Positions 16,299-25,376 of a DNA stretch of 64,000 bases are shown piece by piece. Under the pieces are notes generated by a model. That model saw nothing but the letters and a program-made list of their open reading frames with translations, did not search any database and was not told the origin of the DNA. How positions within the stretch are numbered: position 1 is the first letter of the stretch; each line of letters opens with the position of its first letter. A program made the translations under genes and the position numbers. This DNA is from Burkholderiales bacterium. Lineage in GTDB: Bacteria; Pseudomonadota; Gammaproteobacteria; Burkholderiales; Burkholderiaceae_C. The stretch spans positions 25,852 through 89,851 of the forward strand of contig JBBRYR010000008.1 in NCBI GenBank assembly GCA_038237415.1, written 5' to 3'.

Positions 16299-16376
16299 TT
16301 TTAGTCCTCAATCCCTCGAATGATCATACCGTTTGGGCCCTGCAGGCTGGTGCCTTGGCCGTCTAGAATCGTACGC

Positions 16377-18203
16377 ATGAGCTCCCCAATACCTGCCTCC
16401 CCCGACACCACCCCCAAAGTCAGCAACTTTTTGCGCCAGATCATCGAAAAAGACCTGGCTGAGGGCACCTACGCCACCCGCCGCTGGGCCGGCAGCCCCG
16501 GCGACGCCGCCCACCACGCTGCGGGCCAGCCAGACCCCGCCAAAATCCGCACCCGCTTTCCGCCCGAGCCCAATGGCTACCTGCACATTGGCCACGCCAA
16601 AAGCATCTGCATCAACTTCGGCCTGGCGCGCGACTATGGTGGCGTGTGCCACCTGCGCTTTGACGACACCAACCCCGAAAAAGAAGACACCGAGTATGTG
16701 AACAGCATCATCGACGCGGTGAAATGGCTGGGCTTTGACTGGAACGGCAGCCCCGACGCACCGGCTTACCAGGCCAGCGACTACTTTGACTTCATGTACC
16801 GCGCAGCGGAGCATTTGATTCAAGCCGACCTGGCCTATGTGGACGAGCAAACCGCCGAAGAAATGCGCCTCAACCGGGGCGACTTTGGCAAGCCCGGCAT
16901 TGACAGCATCTTTCGCGGCCGCTCTGCGGCTGACAACCTGGCCCGCTTTCGTGAAATGCGCGACGGCCAACACGAAGACGGCTCCATGGTGCTGCGCGCC
17001 AAGATCGACATGGCCAGCCCCAACATCAACATGCGCGACCCGGCCATCTACCGCATACGCCGCGCCACGCACCACAACACGGGTGACACCTGGTGCATCT
17101 ACCCCATGTACACCTTTGCGCACCCCATTGAGGACGCGCTGGAGCAAATCACCCACAGCCTGTGCACGCTGGAGTTTGAAGACCAGCGCCCGTTTTATGA
17201 CTGGCTGATGGAGCGCCTGTGCGAAGGTGGCCTGCTGGCCGCACCTTCACCCAAGCAATATGAGTTTGCCCGCCTCAACCTGACCTATGTCATCACCAGC
17301 AAACGCAAGCTGGCGCAACTGGTGTACGACCACAAGGTCAACGGCTGGGACGACCCCCGCATGCCAACCATCGTCGGCCTGCGCCGCCGTGGCTACACGC
17401 CCGAGAGTCTGCAAATGTTTGCCGAACGCATAGGCGTGACCAAGAGCGACAGCTGGATCGACTACAGCACGCTGGAAGGCTGCCTGCGCGAAGACCTGGA
17501 GGCCAAAGCCCACCGTGGCATGGCCGTGCTGAACCCCGTGAAGCTGATCATGACCAACTGGGACGAGGTGATGGGTGCCGGCCACTTGGAGCCCTGCACC
17601 CAGCCCGCCCTGCCCCACCAGAACCATGAAGCGACGCATGGCGTCGCGGAAGGTGTTGAACCCGTAGTGCGCCACTTCACCATCGGCAAAGAGGTTTGGA
17701 TTGACCGCGAAGATTTTGAAGAAGTGCCACCCAAAGGCTACAAGCGCTTGTTCCCTGGCAACAAAGTGCGCCTGAAGGGCGGCTATGTGATCGAGTGCAC
17801 CGGCTGCACCAAGGATGCGAATGGCGTCATCACCGAAGTGCTAGCCACCGTGGTGCCCGACACCAAGAGCGGCACACCCGGCAGTGAGACCGTGAAGGTG
17901 AAAGCCGCCATCACCTGGGTGGGCGTGGCCAACGGCGTGAACGCCGAAGTGCGCATGTATGACCGCCTGTTTAGCGACGCCCAGCCCGACGCGGGCGGCA
18001 AAGACTTTATTGAGAGCTTGAACCCGAACAGCTTGAAGGTAGTGACGGCGATTGTTGAGCCTTCATTGGCAAACGCTCTACCGGACCAGAAGTTTCAGTT
18101 TGAGCGGCATGGGTACTTTGTGGCGGATCGGGTGGATCATGTGCAGGGCTCCAAGCCGGTGTTTAACTTGGCGGTGGGGTTGAAGGATAGTTGGGGGAAG
18201 TAG
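16377..18203 (+). CDS. glnS: Glutamine--tRNA ligase
   Basis: RTRFPPEPNGYLHIGHAKSIC (HIGH), TSKRKL (KMSKS equivalent), QFERHGYF; start at MSSP 16377. Confidence 0.97.
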   Translation: MSSPIPASPDTTPKVSNFLRQIIEKDLAEGTYATRRWAGSPGDAAHHAAGQPDPAKIRTRFPPEPNGYLHIGHAKSICINFGLARDYGGVCHLRFDDTNPEKEDTEYVNSIIDAVKWLGFDWNGSPDAPAYQASDYFDFMYRAAEHLIQADLAYVDEQTAEEMRLNRGDFGKPGIDSIFRGRSAADNLARFREMRDGQHEDGSMVLRAKIDMASPNINMRDPAIYRIRRATHHNTGDTWCIYPMYTFAHPIEDALEQITHSLCTLEFEDQRPFYDWLMERLCEGGLLAAPSPKQYEFARLNLTYVITSKRKLAQLVYDHKVNGWDDPRMPTIVGLRRRGYTPESLQMFAERIGVTKSDSWIDYSTLEGCLREDLEAKAHRGMAVLNPVKLIMTNWDEVMGAGHLEPCTQPALPHQNHEATHGVAEGVEPVVRHFTIGKEVWIDREDFEEVPPKGYKRLFPGNKVRLKGGYVIECTGCTKDANGVITEVLATVVPDTKSGTPGSETVKVKAAITWVGVANGVNAEVRMYDRLFSDAQPDAGGKDFIESLNPNSLKVVTAIVEPSLANALPDQKFQFERHGYFVADRVDHVQGSKPVFNLAVGLKDSWGK

Positions 18204-18254
18204 TGGACACTTTCTTCGGTTGTTGAAAAATAAAACACTTAAACAGGGAGAACA

Positions 18255-19142
18255 ATGACAGCAGAAATTTCTCTTCACTATGATGGTCCGATCGCGAAGG
18301 ATCACAAACTCTCATTGCGCGTGCTTGGCGGGGCACTTGACAACTTGCAGGGAGCCATTGACAGGGCAGTCATAGACGTCAAATACGGTAGTGTTTGGAA
18401 GCACGCGCGGCTGAAGAATTCTGATTACCCACTTGCGGAGTTTGACATCACGGGCTTCCGAGAAGGTGGCTTCATAGCCGACCTACGACAGTCGTTAAGT
18501 GGTCTAGGACCGGCCGTTCTGGACCGCGTGCGAAGTGCCCTGGTTCCCGGTCATGCCGCCGCGATTGCCGACGCAGGAGCTGTTTACGACAATCTTGCGA
18601 ATCAAGCGACTCTAAGGAAGCAAACTCTTGAAGCAGGCGCACTTGACGCCCCGGAATTTTCCCAATTCCTGAATGGGAGAAATGAAGAGATCAATGGGCA
18701 ATTCGGGGATCGAAGTATTCTTAAGGAAATCGATCAATTGCTAACGCCGATTCGCGCATCCGCTAACGCTGGCTCCACCCTAGAGATAACAATTACCACA
18801 GATGTGGCCAACACGGTCGTTCTTTTTGATCAGCGGATTGCCAAGAAATTTCATCGCGTTGTATCCACTAGGCGAATTGGAAACCCACTAACTATCTCCG
18901 CGCAAGTTAGATCGCTCAACCAAGGTAATAATTTTCAAGGCTCCAAAGGAAAGCTTGAGAACTTAGATACCGGTAGGGAATTCATACTGCACATTCCTAG
19001 CGAAGCCGCATTTAACTCGCTACTTCCATATTTGGAGAAAGGTGAGCAACAACAGACGATGGCGATTATTGCTTGTCCTGTACTGGAATACGAGAGCTTC
19101 GATCCTTATGGCGGTGATATGTACTTCCTAAAATTGGCTTAG
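18255..19142 (+). CDS. Hypothetical protein, AT-richer island (295 aa)
   Basis: Long ORF with RBS GGGAG; codon usage differs from the host; no motif recognised. Confidence 0.8.
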   Translation: MTAEISLHYDGPIAKDHKLSLRVLGGALDNLQGAIDRAVIDVKYGSVWKHARLKNSDYPLAEFDITGFREGGFIADLRQSLSGLGPAVLDRVRSALVPGHAAAIADAGAVYDNLANQATLRKQTLEAGALDAPEFSQFLNGRNEEINGQFGDRSILKEIDQLLTPIRASANAGSTLEITITTDVANTVVLFDQRIAKKFHRVVSTRRIGNPLTISAQVRSLNQGNNFQGSKGKLENLDTGREFILHIPSEAAFNSLLPYLEKGEQQQTMAIIACPVLEYESFDPYGGDMYFLKLA

Positions 19143-19145
19143 CCC

Positions 19146-19805
19146 ATGGAAATTCCAGAAGCGCTAAGTGACGCAGGTGCGGCGTATCTACAGGACATTC
19201 GTAGTGTCGTTCCTTTTTCGGCTTTGACTATCACGCTAGCTGCCCTTGTCTTGTCCCTCACCCGAGCGGCCAACGATTTCATCGAATCTGGAATTTGGAT
19301 TGTTGCCGGAGCTACTCCCATCGCCAAACTAACAAGCATCGACGGCGGCATTTGGACACATCTCAGTGTTCTGGATGCCCCACTTGCGTTCGCATGCGCA
19401 GGAGTTGCACTTTTGATAAGCAGCATTTACAGAAAAATCGTATTCTGGGCTCTGGCGTCATCGAAAGAATTTCGTCAACTTGAAGCGTCACAACACATCA
19501 AGATGAGCCTCGATACCAAGGAAGCGGAAAAACAGTTGAACTGGATAGACGGACAAATAGCAAAATCATTACCAAATCTCAAGAAAAAAGATATGGCGGC
19601 AGAACTACTCTGCGGCGTTGCTGCCTCGACCATTTTTTATGGAAATTTGGGAGCTATCGTTGATTTTTCCATTGTGATTGCGGCCTTGATTACGGCCTAC
19701 ATTTATGTCCAATCTTGCGCTAAGGACTATCTGACCACTGTCTACCCCTACTTCATGCTCAAGGCAAATTTGGCGGGACTCGTTCATCACGAGCCAAGGA
19801 GGTAA
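19146..19805 (+). CDS. Hypothetical multi-TM membrane protein (219 aa)
   Basis: 3 nt after the previous stop; about 4 hydrophobic segments with a central charged helical stretch. Confidence 0.75.
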   Translation: MEIPEALSDAGAAYLQDIRSVVPFSALTITLAALVLSLTRAANDFIESGIWIVAGATPIAKLTSIDGGIWTHLSVLDAPLAFACAGVALLISSIYRKIVFWALASSKEFRQLEASQHIKMSLDTKEAEKQLNWIDGQIAKSLPNLKKKDMAAELLCGVAASTIFYGNLGAIVDFSIVIAALITAYIYVQSCAKDYLTTVYPYFMLKANLAGLVHHEPRR

Positions 19806-19861
19806 GAGAAAAGGGGGCAGGCTCGACTTTCCAAGTATTTTGAAGGAGGGAATATAAATAA

Positions 19862-20578
19862 ATGGCAAAATTTCTAAACACCAGCGCAACCAACTACTTC
19901 CTTGAAGAGTTAATCAAGAGCGCGTCGGACCGGCTGATTCTGATCAGCCCATTCCTCAAACTTAACGACCGCATGAAAGAGTTGCTGGCGGATAAGAACC
20001 GGTTGAAGATTGATGTGCGCATTGTCTACGGCAAAAGCGAGTTGCAGCCACAAGAAATTGAATGGTTGCGCGGCCTGACCTACATCCGCACAAGTTTCTG
20101 CAAGAACCTGCACGCCAAGTGCTACATGAATGAAGAGATGTGCATCGTGACAAGCCTTAACCTGTATGAGTTCAGCCAGGTCAACAACAACGAAATGGGC
20201 ATTTTGATTCAACGCTCTGACGACAGCCAGTTGTACAAAGATGCTTACGAAGAAGCGCAACGCATCATCCGCATTAGTGACGAAGTGCGTATTTCGCTGG
20301 AGCGCGTTTCCAGTGAGCCCGACACAGTTGGCAAGGATGACGACAAAGGCGCGGATGACGCGGCAGCGACCGACAAGCTGACTTCCTCCAAGATCAGCCA
20401 GAAGTTAGGTTTAAAAACTGCCCAGTTTTTGGATCGGGCAACTGAGTTGGGCTATCTGGCCGCCGATGGCGAAAAGCACGTCATAACGCCCAAAGGTGAT
20501 AAGGCCGGAATTGAGTTTGTCGCCAAATCACGTTTTGGGCCGTACTTCTTGTGGCCACAAGATTTCCATTTGGCTTGA
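19862..20578 (+). CDS. PLD-superfamily (Nuc-like) protein with C-terminal wHTH-like domain
   Basis: LISPF, LHAKCYMNE (HxK), TSLNL, NNEMG motifs; RBS GGAGG. Confidence 0.85.
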   Translation: MAKFLNTSATNYFLEELIKSASDRLILISPFLKLNDRMKELLADKNRLKIDVRIVYGKSELQPQEIEWLRGLTYIRTSFCKNLHAKCYMNEEMCIVTSLNLYEFSQVNNNEMGILIQRSDDSQLYKDAYEEAQRIIRISDEVRISLERVSSEPDTVGKDDDKGADDAAATDKLTSSKISQKLGLKTAQFLDRATELGYLAADGEKHVITPKGDKAGIEFVAKSRFGPYFLWPQDFHLA

Positions 20579-20596
20579 TCCAACCAGACAAACACT

Positions 20597-21325
20597 ATGA
20601 GCTCAGAACTGTTTCCCTCCTTGATTAGTGGCGCAATTGCGATAGTGGCTGCAGGGATTGCCATTTGGGGGCAATTTAGGAACGTTCGAATAAATCATGA
20701 GTTCGAAAAGAGCAAACTGCAGGCTGAAGCCGAAAAAAATGTAGCGCGTTATAGCGAACCACTTGTTCGCGCTGCAGCTGATTTACAGAGTCGACTGTTC
20801 AATATATTGGCATTGAACTTTATCGATCGTTTCCTAGTCAACGGCAGCGCTCGAGAACGAAACTATGCCACTTTAAATTCAGCATTTCTATTTGCACAAT
20901 TCTTTGCTTGGACCGAAGCTACCCGTCAAGAAATTCAGTTTATCAAGCTCGACGGACACGAACAAACGCGAAAACTGTCAGAACTGCAAAGTAATATTTA
21001 CTCAATATTGCAAACCGATACATATACATCAGCATTTAGGGTATTCGCGGGTGAGCAGCGTGCGATTGGGGAAAAAATGCTGATACAAAGCCCGTTTGGA
21101 CTCAAATGCATGGGATATGGTGAATTCATTGCAAACGACGGATTTCCTAGCGACCCCCTGCTTAGTGCCCTTCATGACGACGTTAAAAACCTCAAAATGA
21201 ACAATGCAATTGCGGCCCCAAGGTTCATTGCGCTTCAAAACGCTCTTGTGGAGCTAATGGATTTCCTCGATCCGGACTATTTGCGCTTTCCTAAGGGAGA
21301 GCGCTTAAAGTATTCAGCCAAATAA
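20597..21325 (+). CDS. Hypothetical protein with N-terminal TM (242 aa)
   Basis: AT-rich ORF; TM at residues 8-26, then a helical domain (LFAQFFAWTEATRQEIQF, GEQRAIGE). Confidence 0.8.
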   Translation: MSSELFPSLISGAIAIVAAGIAIWGQFRNVRINHEFEKSKLQAEAEKNVARYSEPLVRAAADLQSRLFNILALNFIDRFLVNGSARERNYATLNSAFLFAQFFAWTEATRQEIQFIKLDGHEQTRKLSELQSNIYSILQTDTYTSAFRVFAGEQRAIGEKMLIQSPFGLKCMGYGEFIANDGFPSDPLLSALHDDVKNLKMNNAIAAPRFIALQNALVELMDFLDPDYLRFPKGERLKYSAK

Positions 21326-21352
21326 ATTTAATCGCGGCGACGCATCGTTAGA

Positions 21353-21766
21353 GTGCCCCTCTTGTCGGCCACGCTGGGCCAGCCCATCTTTGAGCCGCTG
21401 ACCAACGCACCCACGGCCAAGGGCGAAACGGAGCTGTTCTATTGCAAAGGCTCTGGCGCCGATGGCGTGGGCGAATACACCACCGAGGGGTTTGTGGTGC
21501 TCAAGGGCTCCGAAGGCCGCATTGAAAACGTAGCCTCCATTCAAGGCACATCCAACGTGCAGATTCGCGAGGCGCTGATGAAGGATGGCGTGATGGCCCC
21601 GCAAGACGGCCTGTACGTCTTCACCCGCAACCACCTCTTCCCCAGCCCCAGCCAAGCCGCCTTGGCGCTGATGGGCCGCTCCGCCAACGGCTGGGTGGAG
21701 TGGAAGGCCGCCAACGGCAAGACGCTGGATGAGTTGAAGCGCCAGGCTGTGGCAGCTGTTGGTTGA
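21353..21766 (+). pseudogene. DUF4357-like domain, probably the C-terminal remnant of a GIY-YIG-DUF4357 gene
   Basis: LGQPIFEPL, FVVLKGS, FPSPSQAA and GRSANGWVEWK motifs; GTG start without RBS; in-frame stop at 21329-21331. Confidence 0.65.
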
Positions 21767-21771
21767 TGATT

Positions 21772-21816
21772 TGCTACGTTTTTTGTAGCTGCTTGCGCAT
21801 ATTCCACGGGGGCTAG
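21772..21816 (+). repeat. 45-bp repeat family A, copy 1 of the island array
   Basis: TGCTACGTTTTTTGTAGC-TGCTTGCGC-ATATTCCAC-GGGGGCTAG, then AGGCC. Confidence 0.95.
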
Positions 21817-21862
21817 AGGCCAATTTGACACACCGATGGCTTGCTACGGTAAACTCAATTTC

Positions 21863-22153
21863 ATGCGCCCTTCCCAAGCCCTCCGCCAACACCGTGATGC
21901 CGTCTGCCTTGCTGCGGCGCGCCATCGCGTGGCGAACCCACGGGTATTTGGTTCCGCTCTGCGCGGGGATGACAGCGATGGCAGCGACCTGGACTTGTTG
22001 GTAGACCCTCTGCCAGGCACCACACTGTTCGATCTGGGCGGCCTGCAAGACGAGTTGCAAGAGTTGTTGGGCGTGTCGGTCGATGTGCTGACCCTCCAAG
22101 ACCTGCCGGTCAAGTTCCGCGATATCGTGGCCCAGGAAGCCCGGCCTGTATGA
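21863..22153 (+). CDS. mntA: Minimal nucleotidyltransferase antitoxin (MntA-like)
   Basis: GS-X10-DXD motif (GSALRGDDSDGSDLD); overlaps the HEPN gene by 4 nt. Confidence 0.9.
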   Translation: MRPSQALRQHRDAVCLAAARHRVANPRVFGSALRGDDSDGSDLDLLVDPLPGTTLFDLGGLQDELQELLGVSVDVLTLQDLPVKFRDIVAQEARPV

Positions 22154-22497
22154 CCGCAAACCGGTTGGCGGATTTTCTGGGCCACATGCGCCAGGCCATT
22201 GCCGATGCGCAATCGTTCACCGAAGGCGTGGCCCAGGCAGATTTCATGCAGGACAAGCGCACCCAGCAGGCGGTAGTGATGAGCCTCATCGTCTTGGGCG
22301 AAGCGGCCACCAAGGTGATGGATCAGCACCATGCCTTCGCCGCAGAGCACAGCCACATCCCCTGGCGCAGCATGCGGGGCATGCGCAACCGCATAGCCCA
22401 TGGCTACTTCGACATCAACTTGGAAGTAGTGTGGGACACGGTTCAGACGGCGCTGCCGGCTTTGAAGACACAGCTCGACGCATTGCCGTCTGTCTGA
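22150..22497 (+). CDS. hepT: HEPN RNase toxin (HepT/DUF86)
   Basis: IPWRSMRGMRNRIAHGYFDIN with the R-X4-H HEPN motif. Confidence 0.92.
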   Translation: MTANRLADFLGHMRQAIADAQSFTEGVAQADFMQDKRTQQAVVMSLIVLGEAATKVMDQHHAFAAEHSHIPWRSMRGMRNRIAHGYFDINLEVVWDTVQTALPALKTQLDALPSV

Positions 22498-22511
22498 TCT
22501 CAGCTTGTGAT

Positions 22512-22556
22512 TGCTACGTTTTTGATAGCTTCTTGTGCATATTCCACGGGGGCTAG
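22512..22556 (+). repeat. 45-bp repeat family A, copy 2
   Basis: TGCTACGTTTTTGATAGC-TTCTTGTGC-ATATTCCAC-GGGGGCTAG. Confidence 0.95.
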
Positions 22557-22563
22557 AGGCCTA

Positions 22564-23121
22564 TTACTTGCACCATTGCATTTCGCAAGGCACGCCGTCG
22601 CCGTTTCCGTCCATCTTTACGCCCGGGCAGTTAGCCAGAAAATACTTTGCCTCCTGGCAGGAGGTCATCTGCGTGCAATAGCGGCGGCCGTCGCATCTGA
22701 AGTTCGTTGGTGCGGGCGGCGGCTCCGGCAACAAAAGCTCAGCCTGCGCCGCGCGCATCTGTGCGGTGCGCTTGGTGTAGTGCTTGTACCCATACACACC
22801 CAGCGAAGCCAGTATCAACAGCAGTATGAGCTTGCTGCCAAAGCCGGTGCCGCTTGATGCGGGGTTGGCGGGCCTGGCAGAGCGCGGCGGCGTGGTGCGC
22901 GGTGCAGCTTGCACCCCAGGGCGGCTGACGCGCACGGCCTTCTTTTTGCCGTCGCGATCAGGTTCAATCTCAAAGCTGAGGCGTTCGCCTTCAGTCGGTG
23001 CAGCGCCGTCGCGGGCAAAGGCCGACACGTGGACAAAGATGTCCTGTCCGCCGTCGTCGGCCACAATAAATCCATAGCCGCGGTCAGCGTCCCATTTTTT
23101 TAGTTTGCCTTGGTAGCGCAT
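22564..23121 (-). CDS. Cold-shock-domain + TM + excalibur Ca-binding domain protein
   Basis: GKLKKWDADRGYGFI and IFVHVSAF (RNP motifs); TM; CDGRRYCTQMTSCQEAKYFLANCPGVKMDGNGDGVPCE. Confidence 0.9.
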   Translation of the reverse strand: MRYQGKLKKWDADRGYGFIVADDGGQDIFVHVSAFARDGAAPTEGERLSFEIEPDRDGKKKAVRVSRPGVQAAPRTTPPRSARPANPASSGTGFGSKLILLLILASLGVYGYKHYTKRTAQMRAAQAELLLPEPPPAPTNFRCDGRRYCTQMTSCQEAKYFLANCPGVKMDGNGDGVPCEMQWCK

Positions 23122-23161
23122 CTATTTTTACTCCCTTGCGGAGAATTATCGCCAAACTATC

Positions 23162-23206
23162 CGCTATGTTTTTGGTAGCTGCTTGCGCATATTCCACGGG
23201 GACTGG
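23162..23206 (+). repeat. 45-bp repeat family A, copy 3
   Basis: CGCTATGTTTTTGGTAGC-TGCTTGCGC-ATATTCCAC-GGGGACTGG. Confidence 0.95.
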
Positions 23207-23321
23207 AGGCTTATTTGATACAAAGTTTCCCGCGCGCGAGCCCCGGCAATCCCCCCACGGGTGTGCCACCACACAGACGGCGGCACGTTTCAGGCGTGCA
23301 ATGCAGATTTAGGAGCCCGCC

Positions 23322-23560: not shown

Positions 23561-23605
23561 GGGCCGCACCCCTGCGGCTGCTTACGCATATTCCATGGGG
23601 GCTGG
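23561..23605 (+). repeat. 45-bp repeat family A, copy 4 (5' hairpin replaced)
   Basis: The 3' part GC-TGCTTACGC-ATATTCCAT-GGGGGCTGG is conserved; the 5' 18 nt form a different hairpin, GCCGCA-CCCC-TGCGGC. Confidence 0.8.
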
Positions 23606-23676
23606 AGTCACTTTTTCTAACTGTGCGCCAATCGAACGCAATTAGAACCAATATCCTAAAAAATTGTTTCTTGTAT

Positions 23677-23714: not shown

Positions 23715-24230
23715 ATGATTCAAAATACACGCAATTCGGACGATACCGGCGCACTGCAGTTGCAAGCGCTTGGCGCGCAGATTCGTGCCCAACGCAAGGC
23801 GTTGCGCCTAAGCGCCACGGTCACCGCCGAGGCCGCGGGCATGTCACGGGTAACGCTGCACCGCATTGAGAAGGGTGAGCCATCGGTGACTATGGGCGCC
23901 TGGTGCAGCGCGATGGCGGCGCTGGGTATGGCGGTGCAGGCGACCATGCCAGCGAACGAGCGTGCGTCCACCGCGCAGCCGCCAGACGGTGCGGGCTGGA
24001 TTCCGGCGCGTGTGGCGCTGGCCCACTACCCGCAGTTGCGCGCGCTGGCGTGGCAGGTGCAGGGCACTGACACCCTCACCCCTTCTGAGGCGCTGGACAT
24101 TTACGAACGCAATGCGCGGCATCTGGATTTGCAGGCCATGTCTGCGGATGAACAGGCCTTGCTGCAGGCATTGCCGCTGGCCTTGTCGCGCAAGCCTCTC
24201 GCCGCAGGAGGTGATGGCAATGCAGTTTGA
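23715..24230 (+). CDS. XRE/HTH regulator, probable type IV antitoxin
   Basis: IRAQRKALRLSATVTAEAAGMSRVTLHRIEKGEPSVT HTH; overlaps the AbiEii gene. Confidence 0.85.
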   Translation: MIQNTRNSDDTGALQLQALGAQIRAQRKALRLSATVTAEAAGMSRVTLHRIEKGEPSVTMGAWCSAMAALGMAVQATMPANERASTAQPPDGAGWIPARVALAHYPQLRALAWQVQGTDTLTPSEALDIYERNARHLDLQAMSADEQALLQALPLALSRKPLAAGGDGNAV

Positions 24231-24933
24231 ACGCCCGCACCACCAGCGCATTGCCCATGTGCTCAGCGCCTTGGATGGCGCCATCCTGCGCCAACACAGT
24301 TGCCTGTTTGGCGGCGGCACCTGCATTGCACTGCGGTATGGCGAATACCGAGAGTCGGTGGATATTGACTTTTTGGTGTCCGACGCGGCGGGCTACCGCG
24401 AGCTGCGGCAACTGCTCACCACGTCTGCGGGCCTGGCGCCCATCACGCACGCGCATGCGATGCCTTTGGTGGCGCTGCGCGAGATCCGGGCCGACCAATA
24501 CGGCATTCGCACCATGGTGCAAATGGATGGGCAGGCCATCAAGTTGGAAGTCGTGCGCGAAGCCCGCATTACGCTGGAGCCGCCCGCAGCCGACGACACC
24601 ATTTGCGGCGTAAGCACGCTCACCCGCCTGGACTTGGCCACATCCAAGCTATTGGCCAATTCCGACCGACAAGCCGACGACGGCGTGTTCAGCCGCGATG
24701 TGATTGACCTGGCCATGATGGGCCTGCCCCTGCCCGCGCTGCGCGCCGCGCTGGCCAAAGCCGAGCAGGCCTATGGCGCCAGCGTGGCGCGAGATTTGGG
24801 CAAAGCCATAGACCGACTTCAAAACCGCCAGGGCTGGCTGGAGCGCTGCATGCAAGTGATGGCCATGCAGTTACCCAAGGCGGTGTTGTGGCAAAAAGTG
24901 CGGGCACTGCGGCGCATCGTGCCTGAGAGTTAA
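24220..24933 (+). CDS. AbiEii/AbiGii-family nucleotidyltransferase toxin
   Basis: FGGGTCIAL, YRESVDIDF, SKLLANSDR, RDVIDL; RBS GGAGG. Confidence 0.9.
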   Translation: MQFERPHHQRIAHVLSALDGAILRQHSCLFGGGTCIALRYGEYRESVDIDFLVSDAAGYRELRQLLTTSAGLAPITHAHAMPLVALREIRADQYGIRTMVQMDGQAIKLEVVREARITLEPPAADDTICGVSTLTRLDLATSKLLANSDRQADDGVFSRDVIDLAMMGLPLPALRAALAKAEQAYGASVARDLGKAIDRLQNRQGWLERCMQVMAMQLPKAVLWQKVRALRRIVPES

Positions 24934-24941
24934 AGTCGGTT

Positions 24942-24986
24942 TGCTACGTTTTCAATAGCTGCCTGCGCATATTCCACGAGGGCTAG
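24942..24986 (+). repeat. 45-bp repeat family A, copy 5
   Basis: TGCTACGTTTTCAATAGC-TGCCTGCGC-ATATTCCAC-GAGGGCTAG. Confidence 0.95.
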
Positions 24987-25018
24987 AGGTCTATCTGTTA
25001 CATAATTTGGCAATCACC

Positions 25019-25345: not shown

Positions 25346-25376
25346 GAGGCTAGGCCTGTTCCAGGGGGGCTAGGCC

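What the first reader, a model, noticed from the sequence alone, without database searches (positions are those of the whole stretch)
18255..19805. Unknown two-gene operon (soluble 295 aa + ~4-TM 219 aa): candidate anti-phage system
Seen: a tightly coupled pair (3-nt gap) with foreign codon usage, first in an island that also holds PLD, HEPN-MNT, AbiE and GIY-YIG-type genes. I recognise neither family. Known: defence genes cluster, and sensor plus TM-effector pairs are a recurring abortive-infection design. Inference: a possibly undescribed sensor/membrane-effector system.
Basis: inference. Interest (0 to 1): 0.65.

Follow-up and report, generated by a model that had tools for sequence, protein, structure and literature searches.

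The report
Soluble protein plus swappable membrane partner cassette
Two tightly coupled foreign genes next to glnS form a mobile cassette found in defence islands and prophages of several phyla; it is a distant, uncatalogued relative of a mycobacteriophage abortive-infection pair, so it is probably an untested anti-phage system.

Summary
Gene A (18255-19142, 295 aa, soluble) and gene B (19146-19805, 219 aa, four membrane helices) are real. They are 3 nt apart, have low G+C and are under strong purifying selection.

A belongs to a rare family (~166 clusters at 50% identity among 1.8 billion representative proteins; 2 of 400 sampled Pseudomonadota genomes). No Pfam, NCBIfam or PADLOC model captures it; only PHROG 28486, of unknown function, does.

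Every intact copy I could read (23 loci, four phyla) lies beside a membrane-protein gene. That partner comes in three unrelated types, and the A tree implies two replacements. Most neighbourhoods hold defence, toxin-antitoxin or mobile-element genes.

Deep profile comparison links A to PADLOC PDC-S42 / NCBIfam LAPAL_fam (92.7%, E 4e-7). That family includes MichelleMyBell gp29, half of the reported gp29/gp30 abortive-infection pair. A is not RexA-like by sequence or fold, although the layout mirrors lambda RexAB.

Best reading (about 0.55): an untested abortive-infection or exclusion cassette in which A senses infection and the membrane partner is the effector. It is a new variant of a known kind. 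Nothing here shows protection or toxicity.

The parts
18204..18254 (+). 51-nt spacer between the glnS stop and the start of A. It carries a purine-rich ribosome-binding site (AGGGAGAA) and a weak sigma-70-like match (TGGACA-16-AAAAAT). The low-G+C foreign block begins here.
   Evidence: the promoter match is not above what shuffled sequence gives
18255..19142 (+). Gene A: 295-aa soluble acidic protein (pI 5.7). N-terminal strand/helix/hairpin domain with the 'HYDGPIAxxH' motif, a helical middle (85-167), a hairpin plus helix (175-203) and a C-terminal five-strand OB-like barrel (205-295). It is the conserved core of the cassette.
19146..19805 (+). Gene B: 219-aa membrane protein with four helices, both ends inside and a ~47-residue charged cytoplasmic loop between helices 2 and 3. 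Y14 and the intramembrane D173 are invariant. It evolves fast. In the protein collection searched, the window's own product is on record only as a 130-aa form.
16320..18203 (+). Context: glnS (glutaminyl-tRNA synthetase), the conserved left anchor of a variable cargo hotspot.
19862..20578 (+). Context, separate module: single-motif PLD-like protein (PLDc_2; PHROG 9329) whose C-terminal ~65 residues match PDC-S69. It follows glnS without A-B in genome G035.
20597..21325 (+). Context, separate module: 242-aa protein with an N-terminal membrane anchor (PHROG 5606; PADLOC RTasTM 2e-8). A remnant of it follows glnS in genome G030.
21353..21766 (+). Context: truncated C-terminal (DUF4357) fragment of a PDC-S14-type gene. 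It marks the right edge of the low-G+C block.
21836..22497 (+). Context: MNT/HepT (nucleotidyltransferase / HEPN) toxin-antitoxin pair.
23715..24933 (+). Context: AbiEi (HTH) and AbiEii pair. AbiEii probably starts near 24217.

Best explanation
A-B is a mobile two-gene anti-phage cassette of the abortive-infection or exclusion type. A is the conserved cytoplasmic component. It is a remote relative of PDC-S42 / MichelleMyBell gp29 and ends in an acidic OB-like barrel. I propose that A recognises a product of phage infection, more likely a protein than nucleic acid, and then acts on its translationally coupled membrane partner B. B, or an unrelated membrane protein that has replaced it in other lineages, is the effector. 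Once triggered it compromises the cytoplasmic membrane, for example by ion leak through a pore that involves the invariant intramembrane Asp173, and so stops phage development.

Shown here: the genes are real and constrained; A is always adjacent to a membrane partner; partners have been swapped; the cassette moves horizontally and keeps defence or mobile-element neighbours; A is remotely homologous to the PDC-S42/gp29 family.

Inferred: defence function, the direction of signalling from A to B, and membrane depolarisation.
For: 1. Obligate pairing. In all 23 loci with an intact A and readable flanks, a membrane-protein gene lies directly beside it on the same strand. Gaps are -17 to +39 nt downstream, or at most 17 nt upstream in Desulfobacterota.

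2. Three unrelated partner types:
- B: four membrane helices, 208-228 aa.
- B2: two membrane helices, 245-249 aa.
- B3: three membrane helices, 122 aa, upstream of A.
They show no profile similarity to each other. B2 and B3 map to nested, well-supported clades of the A tree (100/99 and 95/90), which implies two replacements. A conserved core with exchangeable membrane parts is what one expects if the partner is an interchangeable effector.

3. Context, in 13 independent neighbourhoods:
- Defence or toxin-antitoxin genes: McrBC+SymE; a type III restriction-modification system + SocA; GmrSD/PLD/SymE/Eco57I; KAP NTPase+HNH; NERD-UvrD with toxin-antitoxin pairs; AAA_21+DUF4276/PLD/zeta; TIR-Mrr.
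- Mobile elements: two prophage ends beside lysis genes; one integrase/Prim-Pol island.
- Two neighbourhoods are plain housekeeping.
Two further copies lie on IMG/VR viral contigs.

4. In this genus the site after glnS is a variable cargo hotspot. A-B DNA was found in none of 40 other genomes.

5. The A tree does not follow taxonomy: Synechococcus groups with Bdellovibrionales, and Stenotrophomonas sits among Burkholderiales. dS between the window and L012 is ~3 for A and B against 0.62 for the flanking glnS. Both point to horizontal exchange.

6. Homology. The A profile (128 sequences) against the LAPAL/PDC-S42 profile gives probability 92.7%, E 4.2e-7, and the alignment is collinear. The best of 20 column-shuffled controls reaches 2.5%, and a reversed control 0.3%. 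The LAPAL profile against MichelleMyBell gp29 gives 97.9%, E 5.5e-13, and gp29 hits PDC-S42 at 1.6e-16. gp29 overlaps gp30, a 67-aa protein with two membrane helices. The MichelleMyBell prophage system is described as a typical abortive-infection system (PMC6426606).

7. Same layout and membrane topology as lambda RexA/RexB and Sbash gp30/gp31: a soluble gene first, then a protein with four membrane helices and a cytoplasmic central loop (PMC6426596).
Against: - No experiment exists. No member of the A family or of any partner family has been tested.
- PADLOC v2 has no model that hits A or any partner.
- The homology to PDC-S42 is remote. A against gp29 directly is not significant. Only the first ~200 residues align under default hhalign settings.
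- For the MichelleMyBell pair, a review calls gp29 the toxic protein and gp30 a putative membrane protein (PMC11856565). That would reverse the roles proposed here.
- A is much better conserved than B. A sensor in an arms race is often the faster-evolving part.
- Two neighbourhoods are plain housekeeping (Synechococcus L034, Undibacterium L049).
- The OB-like assignment rests on Foldseek hits with E 0.03-0.2.
- B has no structural relative in the PDB, so 'channel' is an inference from topology and one conserved Asp.
Confidence: 0.55

Rival explanations
1. Same system, opposite polarity, as reported for MichelleMyBell. A is the toxic effector. The membrane protein is its anchor, inhibitor (antitoxin-like) or the sensor of events at the envelope, comparable to KwaA in Kiwa.
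For: - A review reports gp29, a distant relative of A, as the toxic component and gp30 as a putative membrane protein (PMC11856565).
- A is the strongly conserved part, with many invariant polar residues among its closer relatives.
- The partner can be replaced by unrelated membrane proteins as small as 122 aa. That is easier to accept for an anchor or regulator than for a specific channel.
- PDC-S42/LAPAL relatives carry their own Gly-rich hydrophobic segment and often lack a fixed partner.
Against: - A has no hydrophobic segment and no recognisable enzyme fold.
- In the 128-sequence alignment the histidines are not conserved. The residues that remain (G11, R22, Q32, R37, K49, G71, F191, F199, P275, E278, D283, G287, D288) do not form a known catalytic motif.
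- B keeps an invariant intramembrane Asp and a long cytoplasmic loop like RexB and Sbash gp31 (PMC6426596).
Confidence: 0.2
2. The cassette is not an anti-phage system. It is another accessory module of mobile elements, such as an addiction or toxin-antitoxin-like pair, a block on injection by the element's own relatives, or a membrane-stress function. On this reading its defence-island neighbours only reflect shared integration hotspots.
For: - Hotspots such as the site after glnS collect toxin-antitoxin pairs and other cargo as well as defence genes.
- Two loci have only housekeeping neighbours.
- No model of a validated system hits A or B.
Against: - The remote but full-length homology to the family of gp29, reported as an abortive-infection component.
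- Repeated adjacency to restriction, McrBC, GmrSD, KAP and TIR genes in unrelated genomes.
- Moron positions at prophage ends.
Confidence: 0.2
3. The pair is decaying foreign DNA with no current function in this genome.
For: - The genes have foreign composition.
- Two relatives carry frameshifted A genes, L016 and L031, and in L016 the partner is truncated too.
- The neighbouring PDC-S14 gene is truncated.
Against: - Both frames are intact.
- dN/dS is 0.025 and 0.07 against L012.
- The N-terminus of B and its full length are conserved in all relatives.
- The coupling geometry between the two genes is kept across phyla.
Confidence: 0.05

Closest known systems
MichelleMyBell gp29/gp30 prophage defence (DefenseFinder 'MMB_gp29_gp30') with its wider family, PADLOC PDC-S42 = NCBIfam NF053583 LAPAL_fam (PHROG 3243)
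   Same: - A soluble protein of about 290-310 aa with an N-terminal 'YDGP...H' strand-helix motif and a C-terminal beta-barrel.
- It is followed by, and translationally coupled to, a small membrane protein.
- It is carried as prophage or island cargo.
- Profile-profile homology of A to this family is 92.7%, E 4e-7. gp29 is a member of that family.
   Different: - A fails every model of the family: NF053583 scores 18 bits against a 60-bit cut-off, and the window's A matches no PDC-S42 model (1 of 37 family members at E 0.007).
- A lacks the Gly-rich hydrophobic 'LAPAL' segment.
- Its partner is a 208-228-aa protein with four membrane helices (or B2 or B3), not a 67-aa protein with two.
- Most LAPAL genes sampled have no fixed partner.
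Lambda RexA/RexB and Sbash gp30/gp31 (Pfam PF15969 / PF15968; DUF4747)
   Same: - Gene order: a soluble protein of ~280-300 aa, then a protein with four membrane helices, cytoplasmic ends and a functionally important central cytoplasmic loop.
- Prophage or island cargo.
- The proposed logic is a sensor that activates a membrane channel and so aborts infection (PMC6426596).
   Different: - No sequence match to the RexA or RexB models anywhere in the genome at E <= 1.
- No PADLOC Rex hit.
- No RexA structure among the best 50 Foldseek PDB matches of a confident A model.
- B is about 75 residues longer than RexB.
Kiwa (KwaA with four membrane helices + KwaB)
   Same: A two-gene defence system made of a protein with four membrane helices and a soluble partner of ~300 aa.
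   Different: Gene order is reversed. There is no PADLOC KwaA or KwaB hit and no structural match for either model in the PDB search.
Pfam DUF7946
   Same: The N-terminal 25 residues of A match the start of DUF7946 in 7 of 37 family members. A true DUF7946 protein (L037) is also followed by a small protein with three membrane helices.
   Different: The score is 12.4 bits against a 27-bit cut-off. Comparison of the A and LAPAL profiles with the single L037 sequence is not significant.

Membership tests
NCBIfam NF053583 LAPAL_fam / PADLOC PDC-S42 / MMB gp29 | Match to the family model above its cut-off (NF053583: 60 bits; PDC-S42 HMMs) | tested here: not met
   A scores 18.3 bits, E 1.2e-3, over residues 5-104 only. 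The window's A matches no PDC-S42 model; 1 of 37 family members matches at E 0.0073. Positive controls: a LAPAL protein scores 6.5e-78 and gp29 1.6e-16.
NCBIfam NF053583 LAPAL_fam / PADLOC PDC-S42 / MMB gp29 | Remote homology at profile level (same superfamily) | tested here: met
   hhalign of 128 A sequences against 40 LAPAL sequences: probability 92.7%, E 4.2e-7, 184 columns by default and 257 collinear columns at mact 0.1. The best shuffled control reaches 2.5% and the reversed control 0.3%.
NCBIfam NF053583 LAPAL_fam / PADLOC PDC-S42 / MMB gp29 | Internal Gly-rich hydrophobic ('LAPAL') segment near residues 90-115 | tested here: not met
   No hydrophobic segment in any A protein. Six of the eight sampled LAPAL proteins have one.
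NCBIfam NF053583 LAPAL_fam / PADLOC PDC-S42 / MMB gp29 | Small membrane protein encoded immediately downstream (gp30-like) | tested here: inconclusive
   A always has a membrane partner, but the partner is unrelated to gp30 and 2-3 times larger.
NCBIfam NF053583 LAPAL_fam / PADLOC PDC-S42 / MMB gp29 | Demonstrated protection against phage | not testable with these tools
   Taken from the literature, for MichelleMyBell only (PMC6426606, PMC11856565).
Lambda RexAB / Sbash gp30-gp31 | RexA-type soluble protein (Pfam PF15969 / DUF4747; RexA fold) | tested here: not met
   No PF15969 match in the genome at E <= 1. No DUF4747 or RexA family among the Pfam hits of 37 members at E <= 10. No RexA structure among the 50 best PDB fold matches.
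Lambda RexAB / Sbash gp30-gp31 | RexB-type membrane protein (PF15968) | tested here: not met
   No PF15968 match at E <= 1. No Pfam or PADLOC hit for B.
Lambda RexAB / Sbash gp30-gp31 | Layout: soluble gene, then a partner with four membrane helices, cytoplasmic ends and a central cytoplasmic loop | tested here: met
   compared with PMC6426596
Kiwa (KwaAB) | KwaA and KwaB (DUF4868) homologues | tested here: not met
   No PADLOC or Pfam hits.
Pfam DUF7946 (PF25678) | Score above the gathering cut-off (27 bits) | tested here: not met
   12.4 bits over residues 5-29 only. 7 of 37 members match, best E 0.0041.
PHROG 28486 | Full-length match to the PHROG profile | tested here: met
   E 1.4e-53, residues 5-295 against 18-299 of 299. 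The function of this PHROG is unknown.

The most novel reading that the evidence does not exclude
A, PDC-S42/LAPAL and MichelleMyBell gp29 form one large, mechanistically unsolved superfamily of membrane-targeting abortive-infection systems. In PDC-S42 the membrane-active element is built into the protein. In the A branch it has been split off into a separate gene and exchanged at least twice for unrelated membrane proteins. On this reading A-B is a natural 'split' version that would allow sensing (A) and killing (B) to be separated experimentally for the whole superfamily.
Probability: 0.35. Interest if true: 0.65.

Novelty: new variant of a known kind. Interest (0 to 1): 0.5.

Why it matters
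PDC-S42/LAPAL proteins turned up in 18 of 400 sampled Pseudomonadota genomes. The family includes gp29 of the MichelleMyBell gp29/gp30 pair, which the literature reports as an abortive-infection defence. The mechanism is unknown.

The A branch described here escapes every current defence-finder model that I could run. It also shows a clean separation between a conserved cytoplasmic core and an interchangeable membrane partner. If it defends, it adds an uncatalogued system to defence inventories of Burkholderiales, cyanobacteria and others. It would also offer a tractable two-part model for how this superfamily senses infection and acts on the membrane.

Tried and rejected
- RexAB membership: rejected. 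No PF15969 or PF15968 match and no RexA fold among the top PDB matches.
- Kiwa or any PADLOC v2 system: no hits for A, B, B2 or B3.
- PLD as a third component: rejected. The PLD gene occurs alone after glnS in G035, and A-B occur without it in all loci read apart from the window and L012.
- Gene D as a component: rejected for the same reason. It has its own PHROG, and a remnant follows glnS in G030.
- B and B2 as one family: hhalign probability 0.1%. B3 against B or B2: below 1%. B2 against gene D: 0.3%.
- B2 as bestrophin-like or PycTM: only sub-threshold Pfam hits.
- DUF7946 membership: sub-threshold.
- DUF6575 lead. A BFVD fold match (E 1e-9) carries this domain, which is reported in one of the 21 defence systems of Vassallo et al. 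2022 (PMC9519451). I could not find the Pfam accession or which system it is, and no DUF6575 hit appears among the Pfam scans of 37 members. Left open.
- Profile hit of A residues 68-172 to a long-helix viral fusion subunit in the PDB sequence search (E 0.003): treated as coiled-coil composition, with no fold support.
- A in sequenced phages or plasmids: no tblastn match.
- Fold search of B: nothing below E 0.2.
Full report
**1. Observation**

TAG-CCC-ATG lies between them.
- G+C falls from about 0.62 in glnS (16320-18203) to 0.47-0.50 over 18-21 kb, and returns to about 0.60 after 21.3 kb.
- The low-G+C block holds four + strand genes:
  - A and B.
  - A PLD-like gene (19862-20578; PLDc_2 E 8.5e-9; PHROG 9329 E 2.5e-106).
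  - A 242-aa protein with an N-terminal membrane anchor (20597-21325; PHROG 5606; PADLOC RTasTM 2.3e-8).
- To the right lie a truncated PDC-S14/DUF4357 fragment, an MNT/HepT pair and an AbiEi/AbiEii pair.
- B has four membrane helices. The K/R distribution puts the 101-147 loop and both ends in the cytoplasm.

**2. The two families**

A:
- It has no significant Pfam, NCBIfam or PADLOC match. The only hits are sub-threshold N-terminal matches to DUF7946 and to NCBIfam LAPAL_fam.
- It matches PHROG 28486, of unknown function, over its full length (E 1.4e-53).
- A word-indexed search of 5.8 billion proteins found 41 relatives. An exhaustive profile search of 1.84 billion representatives found 166 clusters, almost all 280-300 aa with the same single architecture.
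- It was present in 2 of 400 sampled Pseudomonadota genomes. I found no match in sequenced phages or plasmids.

B:
- It has only five close relatives and diverges much faster than A: 67% against 87% identity on the same contig.
- Iterated searching unites it with the partners from other phyla at 13-20% identity. Only Y14 and D173 are invariant.

**3. The pair is the conserved unit**

I read 23 loci with an intact A and usable flanks. They come from Beta- and Gammaproteobacteria, Cyanobacteriota, Bdellovibrionota, Thermodesulfobacteriota and two IMG/VR viral contigs. In every one a membrane-protein gene lies directly beside A on the same strand.

The partner comes in three types:

| Type | Size | Membrane helices | Position | Where |
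|---|---|---|---|---|
| B | 208-228 aa | four | downstream, gap -17 to +5 nt | widespread |
| B2 | 245-249 aa | two | downstream, gap -4 to +39 nt | Burkholderia, Ralstonia, Paraburkholderia, Undibacterium and the viral contigs |
| B3 | 122 aa | three | upstream | Desulfobacterota |

- The three types show no profile similarity to one another.
- On a maximum-likelihood tree of A, B-type partners are spread over the whole tree. B2 (100/99) and B3 (95/90) are nested clades, so the partner was replaced at least twice.
- Two loci, L016 and L031, carry frameshifted A genes. In L016 the partner is truncated as well.

**4. Mobility and context**

- The PLD gene alone follows glnS in G035, and a remnant of the fourth gene follows glnS in G030. 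These two genes are therefore independent modules, and the site after glnS is a variable cargo hotspot.
- The metagenomic contig L012 has glnS (85% nucleotide identity), then a 2.3-kb insert (DUF4258/DUF2283 and AAA_21/DUF4276), then a second copy of the last ~110 nt of glnS, then A-B-PLD. That arrangement looks like integration into the 3' end of glnS.
- Between the window and L012, dN/dS is 0.025 (A), 0.070 (B), 0.062 (PLD) and 0.094 (glnS). dS is about 3 for A and B against 0.62 for glnS. The cassette alleles are therefore far older than the divergence of the hosts, and both genes are constrained.
- Neighbourhoods elsewhere:
  - Defence or toxin-antitoxin genes: McrBC+SymE; a type III restriction-modification system + SocA; GmrSD/PLD/SymE/Eco57I; KAP NTPase+HNH beside a conjugative coupling protein; NERD-UvrD with toxin-antitoxin pairs; TIR-Mrr beside a transposase.
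  - Mobile elements: an integrase/Prim-Pol island; two prophage ends next to lysis genes.
  - Two plain housekeeping settings.

**5. Structure**

- The AlphaFold model of A is confident (pLDDT 89.5, pTM 0.84).
- No PDB chain matches it as a whole.
- Residues ~205-295 have OB-fold topology: three strands, a helix, then two strands. They match the LysRS N-domain, RPA, Stn1/Ten1 and SSB at probabilities 0.8-0.94 but with weak E-values.
- This domain is acidic (pI 5.2), which argues against simple nucleic-acid binding.
- In BFVD the best matches are uncharacterised phage proteins of similar length (E 2e-11 to 2e-8). One carries DUF6575.
- The B model (pLDDT 79.9) is a helical bundle with no PDB relative.

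**6. Relation to known systems**

The N-terminal motif of A ('HYDGPIAxxH...L...L') recurs in LAPAL_fam proteins. Earlier notes of this scan (e1-520142, e1-142143) said that LAPAL_fam equals PADLOC PDC-S42 and includes MichelleMyBell gp29. I tested both claims and they hold:
- A LAPAL protein hits PDC-S42 at 6.5e-78, and gp29 hits it at 1.6e-16.
- tblastn of a LAPAL protein finds MichelleMyBell gene 29.
- The LAPAL profile against gp29 gives 97.9%, E 5.5e-13.

With deep profiles (128 A sequences, 40 LAPAL sequences), A against LAPAL gives probability 92.7%, E 4.2e-7. The alignment is collinear over 184 columns by default and 257 with a permissive setting. Twenty column-shuffled controls peak at 2.5%, and a reversed control gives 0.3%. 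A against gp29 directly is not significant.

gp29 (310 aa) overlaps gp30, a 67-aa protein with two membrane helices. The MichelleMyBell prophage system is described as a typical abortive-infection system (PMC6426606). A review calls gp29 toxic and gp30 a putative membrane protein, with the mechanism unknown (PMC11856565).

A differs from PDC-S42 in three ways. It fails all of that family's models. It lacks the Gly-rich hydrophobic segment. It always has a sizeable separate membrane partner, whereas most sampled LAPAL genes have none fixed.

In one genome (L061), a PDC-S42 gene, an A gene and a B gene lie in a row.

The layout also mirrors lambda RexAB and Sbash gp30/gp31 (PMC6426596), but membership was tested and not met.

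**7. Mechanism**

Most likely (about 0.55), the cassette is an abortive-infection or exclusion module. A would be the conserved cytoplasmic sensor or switch, and the membrane partner an interchangeable effector that compromises the membrane once triggered.

In favour of this polarity:
- The partner has been replaced by unrelated membrane proteins.
- B has RexB-like topology.
- B keeps an invariant intramembrane Asp.
- The relatives of A (PDC-S42) carry a built-in hydrophobic element that A lacks.

Against it:
- gp29 is reported to be the toxic component.
- A is conserved far more strongly than B.

The reverse polarity (about 0.2), a non-defence accessory role (about 0.2) and decay (about 0.05) remain open. 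All functional statements are inference.

**8. Verdict**

The cassette is a real, rare, mobile, uncatalogued gene pair. It is best described as a new variant (a split form with a swappable partner) of the PDC-S42 / MichelleMyBell gp29-gp30 kind, with a RexAB-like layout. Its interest is moderate. It is one more candidate among many, but it is well delimited and offers a handle on an unsolved superfamily.

Noticed in passing
window 21771-21837, 22511-22577, 23161-23227, 23577-23607, 24941-25007, 25354-25373: A ~67-nt repeat stands at the boundaries of the PDC-S14 fragment, the MNT/HepT pair, a minus-strand gene and the AbiE pair. It also occurs on many other contigs of this genome and genus. 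No copy lies inside the A-D block (18204-21340). Already reported by another finding of this scan (e1-5272081).
   Followed up: partly
L012 1-1020 and 3414-3527: In a related metagenomic contig, the last ~110 nt of glnS are duplicated on either side of a 2.3-kb insert that carries DUF4258/DUF2283 and AAA_21/DUF4276 genes, directly upstream of A-B-PLD. This looks like site-specific integration into the 3' end of glnS.
   Followed up: partly
window 20597-21325: A 242-aa protein with an N-terminal membrane anchor and a helical body matches the PADLOC 'RTasTM' models (reverse-transcriptase-associated membrane protein, 2.3e-8) and PHROG 5606 over its full length, yet no reverse transcriptase gene is nearby. 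A 100-aa remnant of the same gene follows glnS in genome G030.
   Followed up: partly
It seems to have been cut off by the arrival of the low-G+C block. A full-length 293-aa version sits in the same hotspot in genome G014.
   Followed up: partly
L061 (G462:C19:2725-6594), minus strand 3480-869: A PDC-S42-type gene (318 aa, E 8e-120), an A-family gene (292 aa) and a B-type partner with four membrane helices (209 aa, start overlapping the stop of A) lie in a row. The two related systems can therefore sit side by side.
   Followed up: partly
L037 (G047:C47:25357-28752), minus strand: A true DUF7946 protein (266 aa) is followed by a 155-aa protein with three hydrophobic, probably membrane-spanning, stretches. 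It is preceded by a 309-aa protein that from memory resembles the Abi_alpha family; I did not test that. The 'soluble protein plus small membrane protein' layout recurs here too.
   Followed up: partly
window 19146-19805: In the protein collection searched, the window's own product for gene B is on record only as a 130-aa form (P0043). All relatives conserve the full 217-219 aa, including the N-terminus, so that record appears to be cut short at the 5' end.
   Followed up: yes
L021 4266-4634, L023 6611-6979, L031 6594-6962: In Desulfobacterota the membrane partner of A is a 122-aa protein with three membrane helices, encoded upstream of A rather than downstream. In L022 only a 79-aa remnant with two helices is left.
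   Followed up: partly
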